Shown piece by piece: positions 3,556 through 62,632 of a stretch of 64,000 nucleotides of DNA. The notes below the pieces were generated by a model. It worked only from the letters and a program-made list of their open reading frames with translations. It was not told where the DNA came from and made no database searches. The first letter of the stretch is position 1. Each line of letters begins with the position of its first letter. The DNA comes from Eledone cirrhosa (taxonomy: Eukaryota). The stretch is from positions 54,126,001-54,190,000 of the forward strand of contig OZ024749.1 of assembly GCA_964016885.1 (NCBI GenBank). Reading direction: 5' to 3'. The position numbers were made by a program, and so were the translations under genes.

Positions 3556-3590
<35 letters not shown>

Positions 3591-3592
<2 letters not shown>

Positions 3593-3730
3593 ACAAAGGA
3601 ATTGTGGTAAGGAACCAGATGGACCATAACGCACCAGAGTACTCAATACTTAGGGTAGTAGAGTGGGAAAAAGGAAAAAAGTATGACCCCGACGGCAGAG
3701 CTCAAGCCGTTTTGACGGCTATTTCTGGAC
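3591..3730 (-). mobile_element. Family A (TA)n-associated element (3' half-hammerhead plus tail)
   Basis: Shares ~140 bp with seven other copies in the window; abuts (TA)n. Confidence 0.8.
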
Positions 3731-23745: not shown

Positions 23746-25090
23746 TTAATAGCATTCACACAAGCTTAGTAATGAGGAAATTAATTCTTGATTATTTTCA
23801 AAATCATTAGAAAATCAGAGGTAGTCATCATCATCATCATCAACGTTTAACGTCCGTGTTCCACGCTTGCATAGTATTGTTGATTAGATAGATGGTAATG
23901 AAAGGGTTAGGCAGTGAATTAGTAGAGTTGTTAGAACATCAGATAGAATGATTTGCAGTATTTCGTCTGGCTCTCTGAGTTCAAATCATGCCGAGGTCAA
24001 CCCTGCCTTTTGTCCAATCGGGGTCAATAAAAAAAAAAGTACTAGTCAAGTACTGGGGGTTCGATTCTTCTGTTATCTCTCTTTCTCCCTCCCAGTCTCT
24101 CTCCCAGTCTCTCTATCCTTCTCTGGAAGAAACTTGCTGTATTCAGACTTGGAGAGGAGATGAGCTCTAGAAACACCCGTATGTCAATACAACTCCCTCT
24201 GGCGTTATGGGACCATGCAAGGGTTAAAAAGGAAGGAAGGGGGTTAATAGAGTCAGCTACTTAACACTAATAAAGTGCTATCTGTCAGGTTTCTAATAAA
24301 ATGGACAACTAAAATTAGTTTATATCTCGGTTTATAGAGTGTTGGTTAGGTTTTATTTGATAGTGTGTTTGTATGTCTCTGTCTGTGTGTGCGTATGTAA
24401 GTGTATGTAAATGTGTGTATGTGTGTGTGTGTTTGTATGACTATGTTTCAGTATCCGTGAGTATCTTTCTGTGTGCATGTGCATTGTGCATGTGTGTGTA
24501 TGCATGTGTGTGCATGTAAATGTGTGTATGTGTGTGCACGTGTGTATTTGTATGTCTGTGTGTATCTGTGTGTGCATGTGTGTGCCTGCTTGCATGTCTG
24601 TGTTTCAATCTGTGTGTGTGTGTTTGTGTGTTTCACACGTAACCACGTAACCCTTATCTCACTCAAAGTGACACATGACACATTGTTCCAATGTGGGTTT
24701 CAAGCCAAACACCTCAAGTATGTCCCTGTCAAACTCTAAAGATGCACACTTCATTCTGAAGGACCTTTTGTGCACTTGTTAAAATCTTACAAGATAAAAC
24801 TATTATTTTAAAGAATTTCCCTCCCCTTTAAATTGGTTGCTTTATTTGGCTGTCCTCTGATAGGTTTATGGTTAACCCTGTGACTGGAGACTTCCGGCAT
24901 TCTTGCCACCCCCTACCAGATCACATCACTACTCGCCAATATCAGTGGGGTTACCTACCAACAAATGCAAGTGAGTCCCGCTCCTCAAGTGCACAAATTT
25001 TATAGATTACAACTCACATCTCTCGGATTGAGTGCTCTGCCAACTTTCAATATATTTTTTTTTTCTTATAAAATTTAGTACACTATAACA

Positions 25091-25133
<43 letters not shown>

Positions 25134-25136
<3 letters not shown>

Positions 25137-25327
25137 CGAAGGAGTTGTGGTAAGGAACCAGGTGGACCATAACGCACCAGAGTACTCAATACTTAGGGTA
25201 GTAGAGTGGGTAATAGGAGAAAGTATGACCCCGACGGCAGAGCTCAAGTCATTTCGACGGCTATTTCTGAGTCCGCAAATAGCCGTCGAAACGGCTTGAG
25301 CTCTGCCGTCGGGGTCATACTTTCTCC

Positions 25328-44575: not shown

Positions 44576-45600
44576 ACAATTTCCACACCTACTCGGTTTG
44601 TGAATGAGATTTGGGATCTTGTTGATCAAACTCTATAATACTTCCAGATAAATCACAGCTGTATAGTTAATACAATGTTTTGTTTTAAGTTTTTTGAACA
44701 TCGACTCAAACAACTAAAGTCTAAGATGACTCCAAGACATTTTTCTGGTAAATGACATTTCTGTTCACAACTACGTTTATACAGATTTACTTTCTTGTAT
44801 GACCCTTCTCCAATATTACGACCCTTACAAACCCTATCATTCTCCTTCACAGTAATTATTATACTTTCTTGCATCAGGCCAGTGCTTATCCCAGTTTTTG
44901 TGGTGTGAAGTAATTGAGAGCCCAAAACTAACCCCAACCCCCCTGGACAGGACACCAGTCCATCACAGAGTTAAACTCCCCAGCTATTGCTGGTGGTACT
45001 CTCATTTTCAACTGAGTTTACTAGAGCAACATGGAATGAAGTGTTTTGCTCAAGTCGAGAAATCAAATCCACAACATTATGATTACAAGTCCAGCAACCT
45101 TATCACTAGGCCTCATATTTTCACACACTTGTTGCTACCATCTCACGTTATTACCAACTGCACTTATAAAAAGCTTTTAAGATTCCATATATACAGCAAT
45201 ATTGTTTATGACTAACCGGTGCTTCTTGGGAAATATAATCAAATATTTAGTACAGACGCGAACAAAATTATCGATATAAAGAATTTTTATTTCTTTATAT
45301 CAATATTAAGATGCCTAGGAGACGTGGGGGGGGGGGGGGGAATAGAAATGAGGCCATTAAATGTGTAGACGATGGTGGTGATGGAAGCTTGGTGATAAAT
45401 GGAGCATATAGCCAGACTATGTCAGGTGAATAGTTCGAAAGATTATATTTTTTTAAATGCAAGCATGCACATGTGTGTGTGTGTGTGTATATATATGTAG
45501 GGTATCCCCAAAAATGTATACACACTGATTAGAATGCTTTTGAAGTGTGTCTACAATTTTTGGGACACCCTGTATATATATATATATATATATTTATATA

Positions 45601-45798
45601 TAACGAAGGAAGTGTGGTAAGGAACCAGGTGGACCATAACAGACCAGAGTACTCGATACTTTGGGTAGTAGAGTGGGTAATAGGAAAAGAGTCAGGACCC
45701 CGATGGCAGAGCTCAAGCCGTTTCGACAGCTAGATCTGGACTGAAATAGCTGTCGAAACGGCTTGAGTTCTGCCGTCGGGGCCCTGACTATTTTCCTA
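45601..45798 (-). mobile_element. Family A element with fold-back
   Basis: Same sequence and hairpin as 25134..25330, diverged; between (TA)n tracts. Confidence 0.82.
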
Positions 45799-46210
45799 TA
45801 TATATATATATGTGTGTGTGTCTGTGTGTGTGTACACATACATCTTTAATATATGAGCAGCTACATTTTGTTTGTATGGTATATAACAGTGGTCTCAAAC
45901 TGAAGGACTCAAAACTCAAAAGGATCATTACATCCCCTAGGAAGAGGTCAGAAAAACGAAAAGTGAGCCGAGATGAGGAGTGGGTTGGAATTTCCACCAG
46001 TTACAATACTAATCTACAACACATCTGAGAGCCACTATCTATTTTTTTTTTATTTCACTGTAATAGATACACATAATAGTAATCAGGATATGGGAATTAG
46101 TACAAAATGTAACAAATTTTCTCTTTCAAATTTTTGCTTGCTTCTGTTTTTACTTTTGATAAATACTGTTCTTTTTTTAAAACTATTTTATTATATTTTG
46201 TGGGTTGATG

Positions 46211-51833: not shown

Positions 51834-51991
51834 CGAGGGGTGGAGTGGGTGAAAAAAAAACGAGATAAGGTTGTTTGATGCAATAAAATAAAATAAAATG
51901 TTATGAAATAAGGTAGGATAAGATTATATAAAGTGTAAAGGTGTGAAAAAAGAAAAAGAAAAAGAAAAAGAAAAAGAAAAAGAAAACTTAC

Positions 51992-52373
51992 CTGCAACAA
52001 ATTGTACAATCCCCGCAATTTTAGCAAGTTTTTCCGAGATTAGATCGCTAACACAGAGTGCCATGAGGGCGGTGAGGGAAACAATAACAGCAATACCACA
52101 TCCCGTCCCTATGGTGATAGTTGCTATCTGTGAGGCGAGACTGGGTATATCCATGAAAGTTGTGTAACGTCCACACTCTTCCACAATAACAACAGATCCT
52201 GAACTGGAAAGGGACGGATAATTACATCTCCGAAATAAACCGAAATAGACTGGCACTGACCCTTTTGTTTTGCCCTCCAACCAAAACGGCATGTAAAGTC
52301 CAACACTAGCGGCGGCCGATGCTACGAACGAGAGAAATGCCCACACTACACCAACACCACTTAGACTCGACAT
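51992..52373 (-). CDS. LHFPL6: First coding exon of an LHFPL tetraspan subfamily member 6-like (LHFP) gene; 382 nt, phase-1 donor; remaining exons not found in window
   Basis: MSSLSGVGVVWAFLSFVASAAASVGLYMPFWLEG...FGLFRRCNYP...VEECGRYTTFMDIPS...GCG...LTALMALCVSDLIS...AGIVQFVAG aligns by eye, collinearly, with the LHFPL6 N-terminal region as recalled (W.LLSF, MPYW, FG.FRRC.YP, EECGRY, LTALM..CVSDLIS, GGIQFLGG). ATG at 52373-52371; canonical donor CAG|GTAAGT at 51992/51991. Confidence 0.92.
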
Positions 52374-53289
52374 TTTTAAAAACAAAATTGTGTATTATTT
52401 ATATATAGAAAGATAGATAGATAGATGGGTATATGTGTGTAAAAAAACAACAAGAGTTTAATAAAAAAATAAACTGGTAAAAATCGAATTTACCGTGTAT
52501 ACAACATGTATGGTCAAACAGATAGAAGGAAAAAAATTGAAATGGTTTAGAGGTGAATGGTTCTTAATCTTATACTTTCCGTTTGACACTATAAATGAAA
52601 TACTGTTGGTTATTCTTTCTTCTTGTTCTTGTTGTTGTTGTTGTTCGTGTGTTAAATGTCCAGCTTCTCTACGACTTATAATAAAACAGGTTTAATTCAT
52701 CTGTGGTTGGATAGTAACGATAGTAAAGCTACAATAGTTTAGTAAACAGTAACAGTAAATAGTAAATAGTTATGGTACTAATAATGCTGAAATGATTGTC
52801 TGGGACTAAGAAAATTATGTAAACAATTGTAAGGATAACTCGTGCTAGTAGTAAACAAGAGACAGAGAGACTGGGGGACAGAGAGAAAGTGGTGGTGTGG
52901 TTGTGGTCGTTAGTAGCTTTGTCCTGATCAACATGAAGATGAATACTACAATATCGATGGCCTAAGTGGTGGTGGCGGTTGTGGAAGGAGTCAGTAGCGA
53001 TGCCTGCCAGTGAAAGAACAAGAAGAATTCATTCTATATACACACACACGCAATCAGCTGGAAGTCCTCGTGCTTTTTGACCAAAGCTCTGTGTTTCGTT
53101 ACTTTTATCGCATACGTTTCTTATTTTTCTTTCTTTCGTGGAACGTATATTTAGTTATCTTTAATTTCCTTTTATCTCTTCTTCTTCTTCTTCGTTCTCT
53201 CTCTTTTCTTCTTTCTTTTCCTCCCTTTACCCTCGGTAAAAAGCTTCCTTCTGTACAGCCGAATCAATCCAGTTCCTATTTCAACAGAC

Positions 53290-54581: not shown

Positions 54582-54661
<80 letters not shown>

Positions 54662-54675
54662 TATATATATATATA

Positions 54676-54987
<312 letters not shown>

Positions 54988-55870: not shown

Positions 55871-56008
55871 TAGTCTAGAATTAGCCGTCGAAACGGCTTG
55901 AGCTCAGCCGTCGGGGTCCTATTTGTTCCTATTACCCACTCTACTACCCTAAGTATTGTGTACTTTGGTGCGTTATGGTCCATCTGGTTCCTTACCACAT
56001 TTACCTCG

Positions 56009-56011
<3 letters not shown>
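55871..56011 (+). mobile_element. Family A element, no fold-back
   Basis: tagccgtcGAAAcggcttgagctcagccgTCgggg plus tail ending in (TA)n. Confidence 0.82.
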
Positions 56012-56071
<60 letters not shown>

Positions 56072-57230: not shown

Positions 57231-57383
57231 AAAAAGTATGACCCCGACGGCAGAGCTCATGCCGTTTCGACGGCTATTTCTGCCGTCGGGGTCATACTTT
57301 TTCCTATTTCCCACTCTACTACCCTAAATATTGAGTACTCTGGTTCGTTATGGTCCATCTGGTTCCTTACCACAATTCGTTTG

Positions 57384-57386
<3 letters not shown>
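57231..57386 (+). mobile_element. Family A element with a different fold-back junction
   Basis: Inverted arm joined to ctgccgtcgggg; between (TA)n tracts. Confidence 0.82.
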
Positions 57387-57422
<36 letters not shown>

Positions 57423-57572
57423 GATAAATCTACCAAGAGTTTACGGTAGTGTCCAATCCGTATGAAGAACTCAATGTATTCCGGATATAACACATATATA
57501 CCCTAGAAACGATCGTTAAATAGTGAACTTTTTTTGTTTAATATAAGGAATTGTTTGTTCATTATTTGTTTA

Positions 57573-60663: not shown

Positions 60664-61250
60664 ATATACATACACACACATATACTCACACACACACGTA
60701 TATATATATATATAATATGTATTATATATGATGTTAAAATGATGATGATGATGATGATGATATATATATATATAAAGAGAAAGAAAGTGATAGGTATGTA
60801 GTTATATATACAGAGAGAGCCATATATACCTCAGAGAGAGCCATATATATAAAGAGTGATGTGCTCAGGTGGAGAGATATGATAAAACAGCTTATAAAAT
60901 AGAGTGAAGACTCATAGAGATGGAAAAAGTTGCCACTGGTATCTGGGAGATACGAGGTTCAATTCCTTGTAGCAGCCAATGGCAACTCCTTTTTCCATCT
61001 CGTAGGAAAATGTTATAGCATCTGTACACTTGAGCACACCTCTCTTTATATATGCATATATACATACATATATATATATACACGGGGTAACAGATTATTG
61101 TTATAGGTAGTCCACTTAGGTGTAATCCAGTTAGGGTACTCCGAGTGGTGGATGATATCATCGCTTGGCTAAGTTTGACTCAACAAGGCGTTTCCATAGT
61201 GATGCTGCGAGTACGCAGTGATTTCTATATTGTTAACACTTGGAGTAATG

Positions 61251-61590
61251 ATAAATCAGGAAAGAAGAGTGACATGGTTTGCTATACAAAAAAGGTTTTT
61301 AATCTCATTGCTGACAATTGTTTCTCTGAACTGGTAGGTCTAGAGATCGCTACCCGCTTGTTTTCACGTCATTCGATCACCAATATATAGTTATAACCAG
61401 TCAATTCATCAGAGCATTCTCACAAGCTCTGATGAATTGACTGGTTACAACTATATATTGGTGATCGAATGACGTGAAAACAAGCGGGTAGCGATCTCTA
61501 GACCTACCAGTTCAGAGAAACAATTGTCAGCAATGAGATTAAAAACCTTTTTTGTATAGCAAACCATGTCACTCTTCTTTCCTGATTTAT
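61251..61590. repeat. Near-perfect inverted repeat, 165-bp arms, 10-nt spacer
   Basis: Arms 61251-61415 and 61426-61590; one mismatch seen (ttataacc vs ggttacaa); the ORF track shows the same peptide on both strands. Confidence 0.95.
61418..61538 (+). ncRNA. Type I hammerhead ribozyme fold with large stem II loop (mirror copy on minus strand 61310..61415)
   Basis: tctca-caa-gct-CTGATGA-attgactggt...accagttcaga-GAAA-caattg-TC|agc-aa-tgaga; palindromic acaattgt stem III, GUC triplet. Confidence 0.7.
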
Positions 61591-61616
61591 ATATATATAT
61601 ATATCTATATATATAT

Positions 61617-61645
<29 letters not shown>

Positions 61646-61647
<2 letters not shown>

Positions 61648-61787
61648 ACAAAGAAAGTGTGGTAAAATACCAGGTGGACCATAATGCGGCAGAGTAACCG
61701 ATACTTAGGGTAGTAGAGTGGGTAATAGGAAAAGAGTCGGGATCCCCGATGGCTGAGCTCCAGCCATTTCGACAGCTAGATCTGAAT
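61646..61787 (-). mobile_element. Family A element, diverged
   Basis: gtggtaaaataccaggtggaccataat...gatacttagggtagtagagtggg...catttcgacagctag. Confidence 0.75.
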
Positions 61788-62632
61788 TGAGAGAGAGGTG
61801 GGAAAGGGAGAGTCTGTACTGCTGAGACTGGGGAGACCACTAACCATGGGAGTACTCAATGCATGGGGAGATGCAGAGTGGGTATAGAGATATGTGTGTA
61901 TATATATACATATATATATACACACATATATGATATTCAATACACACACACACATACATATATGTTAATGATGTTGATTTGGTTGATGATGAAGATGTTG
62001 ATGATGGTGGTGGCAATGATGATGGTCATGATGATGATGGTGGCAATGATAACATTTGTTCCACCATTACTGTTAGCGCTACCATTACCGTTATATATTA
62101 CAGAAAGCTGTAAACGTGTTAATGAATATATAATTGTCAGATAAAATAATTCAAAACTAATTTGGATTCATTATCCTCTAATGATACCAACAACAACAAC
62201 AACAACAAATAAATAAGACAATATATATATATATACATATATATATACATATATATATATATATAAATATATATTTATATGTATGTATAAATATATATAT
62301 ATGTGTGTGTTACATATTAAGATATAGAATCAACTAAATTTTAATTTCATTATAAATTAAATTGGTATTTGTAATAAAATTAGAAATGCGTCCAATAAAA
62401 CATATTTCCGAAGCTGTCATTTAATAGATTTAATAAATTTAATAAATGAGAAAACTCGAAAAAATTATTGTTACAGTAAAGAGAAAAGAGGAAAAAACTT
62501 GAATAAATTTGTTCATTTGATAAGAATCAATTCTCTGTCTCTCTCTGTCTTTCTCTCTCTGTCTTTCTCTCTCAGAACAACTTGGCTCTGGTACAACATC
62601 TTTGCAAAACATTTGTATGATACAAGAGGGAG

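What the first reader, a model, noticed from the sequence alone, without database searches (positions are those of the whole stretch)
61080..61590. Young 165-bp-arm palindrome encoding back-to-back hammerheads on both strands
Arms 61251-61415 and 61426-61590 differ at one visible position, so the event is recent. Each arm begins at the 3-bp stem I strand (gct) before CTGATGA and has GAAA-caattg-TC|agc. The 10-nt spacer supplies extra stem I pairing (tctca/tgaga) for the plus copy. Stem II encloses a loop of about 60 nt, unusually large for a minimal hammerhead. The minus copy has a longer tail running to (TA)n at ~61080. A read-through transcript would have competing folds: a long dsRNA hairpin or the ribozyme.
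Basis: partly seen in the sequence, partly recalled or inferred. Interest (0 to 1): 0.8.

Follow-up and report, generated by a model that had tools for sequence, protein, structure and literature searches.

The report
Head-to-head Penelope stubs, oversized hammerhead
The palindrome is two short stubs of the same jumping gene (a Penelope-like retroelement) pasted head to head into a TA repeat, a known kind of structure, but its copies across the genome carry an unusually large hammerhead-ribozyme motif and show that the two halves are likely copied separately from two fixed start points.

Summary
Observation confirmed: 165-bp arms, one mismatch, a type I hammerhead motif on each strand. It is not a stand-alone element but the end repeat (pLTR) of an abundant Penelope-like retroelement with Hydra-clade protein motifs. 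Head-to-head stubs are the family's normal insertion form: 55 of 55 scored pairs have one arm ending at +165 and the other about 170 nt further, both abutting (TA)n. The 10-nt 'spacer' is native element sequence, beginning 31 nt after a TATA box; 5' ends pile up there in two families, so it is likely the transcription start. Best mechanism (inferred): two cDNAs primed from opposite target strands at two internal RNA sites, joined at their ends. Inverted pLTRs, opposite-strand hammerheads, tails and TA targeting are published. Not found in my searches: a 70-90-nt covarying domain II (published Hydra loops 3-10 nt) and a ~170-nt tail (published 30-40). Cleavage is untested; no excess of copies starts at the cut site, and 91 of 193 carry U4C. 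No read spanned this locus. The scan noted similar stubs in a shark-like genome before.

The parts
61082..61250 (-). 169-nt 'tail' of the minus stub: in full-length copies the start of the next unit, ending about 50 nt before the ORF start; likely distal reverse-transcription start site at 61082
   Evidence: (158 exact tail-end + TAT matches)
61251..61415 (-). Left arm: pLTR stub from stem I (+1) through the hammerhead to +165, continuing into the tail
   Evidence: L225
61416..61425 (+). Native 5' leader of the plus stub (positions -10..-1); first base is the predicted transcription start (TCATTC initiator-like, 31 nt after TATATAG in full copies); supplies distal stem I
   Evidence: start site inferred, no RNA data
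61426..61590 (+). Right arm: pLTR stub +1..+165, ending at the proximal terminus TTTAT, fused to (AT)n
   Evidence: 357 exact matches of this end + A
61426..61538 (+). Type I hammerhead motif, plus copy: stem I 61426-28/61529-31 (distal 61418-22/61534-38), core 61429-35, domain II 61436-61516, GAAA 61517-20, palindromic stem III ACAATTGT 61520-27, predicted cut after 61528
   Evidence: cleavage untested
61310..61415 (-). Type I hammerhead motif, minus copy: core 61412-61406, predicted cut after 61313; lacks the distal stem I strand
61436..61516 (+). 81-nt domain II: extended irregular hairpin of three helices that covary across sister families
61045..61081 (.). Left half of the (TA)n-type target tract
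61591..61649 (.). Right half of the (TA)n target tract, shared with the 3' end of a different repeat at 61650-61800

Best explanation
The palindrome is a non-coding, head-to-head insertion of two 5'-truncated end repeats (pLTRs) of an abundant Penelope-like retroelement with Hydra-clade motifs, likely made when the element's protein nicked both strands of a (TA)n tract and primed two separate cDNAs. Shown: family membership, full-length element anatomy (pLTR+tail, RT-endonuclease ORF, ~830-nt 3' UTR, pLTR), two fixed 3' termini about 170 nt apart, one of each per pair, a 5' edge at -10. Inferred: a TATA/initiator promoter starts the RNA at the first base of hammerhead stem I; one cDNA starts at +165, the other at about +334; both run through the uncleaved hammerhead towards the RNA's 5' end, and their 3' ends are joined with little or no microhomology. 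The back-to-back hammerheads are passengers; this copy is predicted to be promoterless and ribozyme-inert, at most a dsRNA hairpin if read through. In the active element the hammerhead would be a weak, dimer- or protein-dependent motif (palindromic 2-bp stem III).
For: Upstream of the arm in other copies lie a 3' UTR and an RT + GIY-YIG-type ORF; five near-full-length copies. 55 of 55 head-to-head pairs found in 100 loci chosen only by a 3'-end motif have one +165 end and one tail end; 41 of 43 in a broader, overlapping set. In 29 of 38 direct junctions each arm holds sequence absent from the other, which fold-back of one cDNA cannot give; 22 of 38 tail arms stop at or after +158, as expected if the two primers meet on one RNA. 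Arms of a pair agree at subfamily-diagnostic sites. The window's junction recurs: 9 pattern matches genome-wide, 6 resolved as the same +1/-11 joint, one (L226) with the tail on the other arm. 5' edges: prediction noted for sister family B was met, 18 of 33 truncated copies end 4-9 nt before the core (predicted 6) against 5 in the next 29 nt beyond 15; family A 9 of 25 at 9-15 (predicted 13) against 1 at 16-31. TATA box 31 nt before that base in both families. Published: both-strand nicking, two internal RT starts giving the tail, uncleaved RNA as main substrate (PMC11167929).
Against: No RNA data: start site, expression and cleavage are not shown. Family A edges are broader than family B's (8 of 25 lie 1-7 nt before the core, and the window's minus arm stops at +1, which a start site at -10 does not explain). 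The start site coincides with the 5' boundary of stem I, and in family B also with a YAG resembling a splice acceptor, so other causes of the edge are not excluded. 7 of 25 family-A edges at 32-33 were judged by eye a subfamily duplication and left out of the test; bin widths were chosen after seeing the data. The pair finder counts only pairs whose arms both end at one of the two termini. No intact ORF was found among the copies fetched (longest family ORFs 250-520 aa). Clade assignment rests on motifs, not on a tree.
Confidence: 0.8

Rival explanations
1. Self-priming / fold-back: one nucleic acid strand folds back at a short palindrome and is copied into the second arm (the model offered for inverted Penelope junctions in PMC3846280, there on an antisense template).
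For: Junction palindromes are reported for Adineta Penelopes. Arms share subfamily variants. A contig of run X1 holds a joint centred on the short AGCT palindrome. In 9 of 38 junctions the tail arm contains the other arm's sequence, compatible with fold-back.
Against: In the window the plus arm holds -10..-1 in sense orientation, absent from the tail arm, and the tail arm holds 169 nt absent from the plus arm; 29 of 38 junctions are like this.
Confidence: 0.08
2. Same insertion mechanism, but the 5' edge is set by RNA structure or processing (reverse transcriptase leaving the hammerhead domain, or a splice acceptor at stem I as in D. virilis Penelope) rather than by a transcription start.
For: Edge equals the 5' end of stem I in both families; family A has a second cluster near +1, the proximal stem I strand; an intron ends at helix I in D. 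virilis (PMC4209133).
Against: TATA box at the canonical 31 nt in two families with different intervening sequence; no shared upstream exon is seen before the junctions.
Confidence: 0.15
3. A self-propagating palindromic mini-element or retrozyme that moves as a unit and uses hairpin-versus-ribozyme switching.
For: The exact junction occurs at several loci.
Against: Those loci belong to different subfamilies with arms matched within each locus, and one has the arms swapped; junction positions otherwise vary widely; no tandem hammerhead units; hairpin outweighs the arm fold by over 250 kcal/mol.
Confidence: 0.03
4. Assembly or sequencing artefact (chimeric fold-back read) at this locus.
For: No read or contig in 4 runs spans the junction.
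Against: Arms differ at one base, have different outer ends that match the family's two termini, and follow a 55-of-55 family rule; an independent run holds a head-to-head joint of the same family. The raw runs are reduced-representation libraries, so a hole is uninformative.
Confidence: 0.02

Closest known systems
Hydra clade of endonuclease-positive Penelope-like elements (Craig et al. 2021, PMC8557442), e.g. Hydra-1_Obim, Penelope-13_HM
   Same: RWK, DKT, CxCX5C linker, no CCHH, terminal CxxC and CxH, C-terminal endonuclease, (TA)n target, type I hammerhead near the 3' end with an unpaired position after CUGAUGA; Penelope-13_HM has a 5'-truncated inverted copy with hammerheads on both strands.
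   Different: Loop 2 is 3-10 nt in all 26 Hydra rows of their File S2, against a 70-90-nt domain II here; tail about 170 nt against 30-40; unit about 3.6 kb with an ~830-nt 3' UTR against generally under 3 kb.
PAc (Poseidon, Anolis) internal initiation of reverse transcription (Frangieh et al. 2024, PMC11167929)
   Same: Two RT start sites define the tail; both strands nicked and extended; AT-rich target; hammerhead cleavage not needed for insertion.
   Different: Different clade; PAc starts lie 111-118 nt inside the ORF and close together, here they are 169 nt apart and both precede the ORF start.
Minimal PLE hammerheads (Cervera and de la Pena 2014, PMC4209133)
   Same: Type I, palindromic stem III for dimers, long helix II, short helix I, extra nucleotide at the base of helix II; dual motifs 100-700 bp apart on opposite strands already reported.
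   Different: G10.1-C11.1 pair absent here; domain II three helices long; U4C in 91 of 193 family copies.
Inverted pLTRs of Adineta vaga Penelopes (Arkhipova et al. 2013, PMC3846280)
   Same: Head-to-head pLTRs, tail on one side, TATA and initiator-like motifs in the pLTR.
   Different: That paper favours self-priming on an antisense template; the junction data here favour two separately primed cDNAs.
Non-LTR retrozymes (bioRxiv 10.64898/2026.07.22.740005, part 1 read)
   Same: Non-coding, type I hammerhead, derived from PLE pLTRs.
   Different: Retrozymes are head-to-tail tandem units; this is a head-to-head pair of truncated copies of an element with its own ORF.

Membership tests
Penelope-like element (EN+) | Single ORF with RT and C-terminal GIY-YIG endonuclease | tested here: met
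   In family copies, not in the window: YRDD in 3 of 5, VY..YIG in 4 of 5 near-full-length copies; all five are broken. Pfam gave no hit for L099 or L086 ORFs; homologs are unnamed 710-712-aa proteins, E 8e-69 and 5e-65.
Penelope-like element (EN+) | pLTRs in partial tandem, adjacent inverted 5'-truncated copy, tail at one end | tested here: met
Penelope-like element (EN+) | Tail of 30-40 bp | tested here: not met
   169 nt in this family; about 160 in sister families, 112 in another
Hydra clade | RWK and DKT motifs | tested here: met
   RWK 5 of 5, DKT 4 of 5 (features)
Hydra clade | CxCX5C linker, no CCHH, terminal CxxC and CxH | tested here: met
   CxCX5C 4 of 5, CxxC 5 of 5, CxH 5 of 5; one Cys only between VY and YIG
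Hydra clade | Insertion into (TA)n | tested here: met
Hydra clade | Canonical short-loop hammerhead; length under 3 kb | tested here: not met
   Domain II 81 nt; unit 3634 nt
Hydra clade | Placement in an RT phylogeny with reference Hydra proteins | not tested
   Reference proteins were seen only in a paper's supplement; no tree built
Nematis/Neptune clades | CX2-5CxxC linker and CCHH in the endonuclease | tested here: not met
Type I hammerhead ribozyme | Core CUGANGA, GAAA, NUH | tested here: met
   Both arms. 91 of 193 family copies carry U4C, a variant said to lower activity in vitro (PMC3088659).
Type I hammerhead ribozyme | Three stems supported by covariation | tested here: met
   22 sequences: 86.5% of cells paired, 14 of 24 pairs with two-sided change, slid controls 28-42%; stem I only 65% (several rows 5'-truncated); stem III invariant because the search pattern fixed it
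Type I hammerhead ribozyme | R10.1-Y11.1 pair closing the core | tested here: not met
   A.A in the window, mostly U.U in sisters; published Hydra motifs share such a mismatch and U-U is tolerated
Type I hammerhead ribozyme | Match to Rfam hammerhead models | tested here: not met
   likely because of the long domain II (inference)
Type I hammerhead ribozyme | Self-cleavage | not testable with these tools
   Indirect only: 5 of 163 copy ends at +102..+106, none at +104; monomer fold 5-8 kcal/mol above the ensemble
Non-LTR retrozyme | Head-to-tail tandem units each with a hammerhead | tested here: not met

The most novel reading that the evidence does not exclude
An octopus-like genome holds a whole radiation of Hydra-clade retroelements whose hammerhead carries a conserved 70-90-nt three-helix domain II, invisible to Rfam and to published descriptors, placed at the very 5' end of the RNA. 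This domain would be a new structural module (binding site for the element's protein, or a switch that keeps cleavage off until after reverse transcription), and the strict one-tail/one-short-end rule over a 170-nt spacing records an asymmetric protein dimer priming both target strands - the general origin of Penelope inverted repeats.
Probability: 0.35. Interest if true: 0.65.

Novelty: new variant of a known kind. Interest (0 to 1): 0.42.

Why it matters
How Penelope-like elements build their inverted repeats and tails, and what their hammerheads do, are open questions. This family gives hundreds of natural products with an unusually wide, easily read spacing between the two termini: they favour two-primer synthesis over fold-back and name exact RNA positions (start site, two RT starts) for an in vitro test. 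The enlarged, covarying domain II means over two thousand hammerhead motifs in this genome (827 plus 1339 exact pattern matches) escape the standard model tried, so such motifs may be under-counted elsewhere. The palindrome itself is ordinary debris of this process; such hairpins could feed A-to-I editing or small-RNA pathways if transcribed (untested).

Tried and rejected
Rfam: no hammerhead, only generic hairpin (miRNA) matches below gathering score. Nematis/Neptune assignment, my first guess, rejected on endonuclease motifs. Hypothesis that copies start at the ribozyme cut site: no peak. Arm-to-arm gene conversion as the cause of near identity: inconclusive; across 43 pairs only 17 shared rare changes in 6157 sites against 241 differences, and for the window 1 difference, 1 shared, 4 in the tail. 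No RNA holder listed, so no expression, start-site or editing test. No read spanned the locus; contigs of four other organisms cover parts of the pLTR at 80-95% identity but were too fragmentary for covariation. RNAalifold alone recovered only the two inner helices of domain II, not outer stem II, stem I or stem III. Pfam did not recognise the element's protein. The right-flank repeat looked like a third hammerhead half but has CTGANGA upstream in only 1 of 102 copies. Paper searches for twin priming in PLEs, for long stem II in PLE hammerheads, for octopus PLE hammerheads and for Nematis tails showed no report of a ~170-nt tail or ~80-nt domain II; the library lacks most subscription papers and Repbase, and the supplements of PMC4209133 and PMC11167929 were not seen and may bear on this. 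Two non-Hydra elements in File S2 have 29- and 35-nt loops, so long loops have some precedent.

Full report
Observation. The inverted repeat is as described: arms 61251-61415 and 61426-61590, one difference at 61393, ten bases between. Each strand carries GCT-CTGATGA-81 nt-GAAA-CAATTG-TC|AGC. The minus copy runs on 169 nt to 61082; both outer ends abut TA repeats. Rfam has no hammerhead match. The genome is 3.0 Gb and TA-rich; octopus-like is my inference.

What it belongs to. The arm is part of a large family: 2395 first-look candidates, 40 scored; exact patterns give 827 cores, 357 short ends and 158 tail ends, reversed controls 0. In other copies the sequence upstream of the arm is a fixed 3' UTR of 817-840 nt and the end of an ORF. 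Of 39 long stretches fetched around ORF matches, five hold pLTR, tail and ORF in one direction (L081, L086, L093, L099, L107); all are broken. Their translations show the motifs that Craig et al. 2021 (PMC8557442; passages, section 11 and supplement parts read) give for the Hydra clade: RWK 5 of 5, DKT 4 of 5, CxCX5C 4 of 5, terminal CxxC and CxH 5 of 5, no CCHH. The N-terminus resembles Hydra-1_Obim by eye. No tree was built. The ten 'spacer' bases are the native sequence just before stem I.

Insertion anatomy. Copies end at +165 or at about +334-338 (G of GCT = +1), always into (TA)n. In 100 loci chosen only by one of the two end motifs, all 55 head-to-head pairs whose arms reach a terminus have one end of each kind. 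In a broader, overlapping set of 43 pairs with at least 60 nt in common, 41 do; one exception was cut by the locus edge. Arms of a pair agree at subfamily sites, so both come from one source. In 29 of 38 direct junctions each arm holds sequence that the other lacks, which excludes fold-back of a single cDNA; 22 of 38 tail arms stop at or after +158; 23 of 38 junctions overlap by 1-6 nt by BLAST, a rough measure. The window's junction pattern occurs 9 times; six are the same +1/-11 joint, in both U4 and C4 subfamilies, one with the tail on the other arm; one was a different joint and two were not tabulated. It therefore forms anew each time.

The 5' edge. Of 39 family copies truncated near the hammerhead, 21 begin at -13..-6 (a sample partly chosen for full arms). 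Full copies have TATATAG 31 nt before the A at -10, within TCATTC. I noted a prediction for sister family B before testing: edge at the A six bases before the core, 31 nt after TATAAATA. Of 70 B copies 33 are truncated: 18 at 4-9 nt, 28 at 0-15, 5 at 16-44; of 71 A copies chosen by the core pattern 25 are not full: 9 at 9-15 (predicted 13), 8 at 1-7, 1 at 27, and 7 at 32-33 that I judged a subfamily duplication. Binomial p 2e-10 and 2e-4 with bins chosen afterwards. A transcription start is the best reading; stem I boundary and a splice acceptor remain possible. No RNA run was listed.

The ribozyme motif. A pattern excluding this family finds 1339 further cores with 66-90 nt before GAAACAATTGT (control 0), from several sister families with domain II of 70-90 nt and the same two-ended layout; one sister locus is itself head-to-head (L240/L241). 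On 22 aligned sequences (22 of the 30 loci plus family copies; three more distant families, two deletion or duplication variants and a duplicate were left out), a structure of five helices pairs 86.5% of cells, 14 of 24 pairs change on both sides, 0 of 500 shuffles reach the score and slid controls give 28-42%. Caveats: sequences are related, the structure was derived from them, and the core was fixed by the pattern. RNAalifold found the two inner helices on its own, 7 of 13 pairs compensatory. So the 'loop' is a conserved extended hairpin. Published Hydra motifs have loops of 3-10 nt in 26 rows; two non-Hydra elements have 29 and 35. Against strong activity: A.A at 10.1-11.1, a 2-bp stem III that needs a partner (8-bp self-duplex), a monomer fold 5-8 kcal/mol above the ensemble, U4C in 91 of 193 copies (PMC3088659 passages), and no excess of copies beginning at the cut site (5 of 163 at +102..+106, none at +104). 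Both window arms contain the intact cut site, so their templates were uncleaved.

Mechanism. Inferred, by analogy with PAc (PMC11167929, parts 1-2 of 4 read): the protein nicks both strands of (TA)n and starts cDNA at two internal RNA sites; here they lie 169 nt apart, each at an AT that matches the target. Priming on the RNA's 5' pLTR gives short cDNAs that run towards the start site, and their ends are joined. The product keeps no TATA box of the element and has one sense hammerhead per strand; a read-through RNA would form a -297 kcal/mol hairpin, so there is no real competition of folds. Age: 1 of 159 arm differences against 3.9% on average, yet 4 rare changes in the tail: probably younger than average, not shown to be very recent.

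Known and new. Inverted truncated copies, one-sided tails and TA targets (PMC8557442), opposite-strand dual hammerheads 100-700 bp apart (PMC4209133, parts 1-2 of 4), head-to-head junctions and TATA/initiator motifs (PMC3846280 passages) are in print. PMC6155905 and PMC6962438 (passages) and a retrozyme preprint (part 1 of 5) added nothing on long domain II. My searches showed no ~170-nt tail, no ~80-nt domain II and no twin-priming account for PLEs. The scan's earlier notes, looked up after my reading was fixed, describe start-site clustering and newly built palindromes in a shark-like genome; none matched this sequence. Verdict: ordinary structure, new variant lineage, useful mechanistic record; interest 0.42.

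Noticed in passing
window 61650-61800 (-); further copies near 3570-3730, 25090-25270, 45570-45800, 54600-54810, 55880-56070, 57300-57430: A second, very abundant (TA)n-targeted repeat with the same layout: two 3' ends, mostly 79 nt apart (23 of 31), and many head-to-head pairs; CTGANGA upstream in only 1 of 102 copies. Likely another Penelope-like or non-autonomous family without a canonical hammerhead; its ORF was not sought.
   Followed up: partly
window 51927-52394 (-): Coding exon of an LHFPL-family gene (PF10242, E 2e-21); the palindrome lies about 8.7 kb upstream of it, possibly in a 5' intron or promoter-distal region.
   Followed up: partly
   Followed up: partly
window 61490-61515 and sister loci L230-L259: Invariant unpaired or non-canonical bases inside domain II (an AGAC block 3' of the middle helix, an internal loop GAGUG/UAGC) hint at a protein-binding or tertiary motif.
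   Followed up: no
L143, L144, L146, L155, L182: A second small cluster of 5' junctions at about -205 to -211 in the 3' UTR, often paired with -230.
   Followed up: no
L237, L256, L258: More distant families with the same core and stem III but wholly different domain II sequences that fold well (z -4.0, -2.6, -6.3).
   Followed up: partly
window 60860-61060: Left flank has no second copy among the loci held; unidentified.
   Followed up: partly
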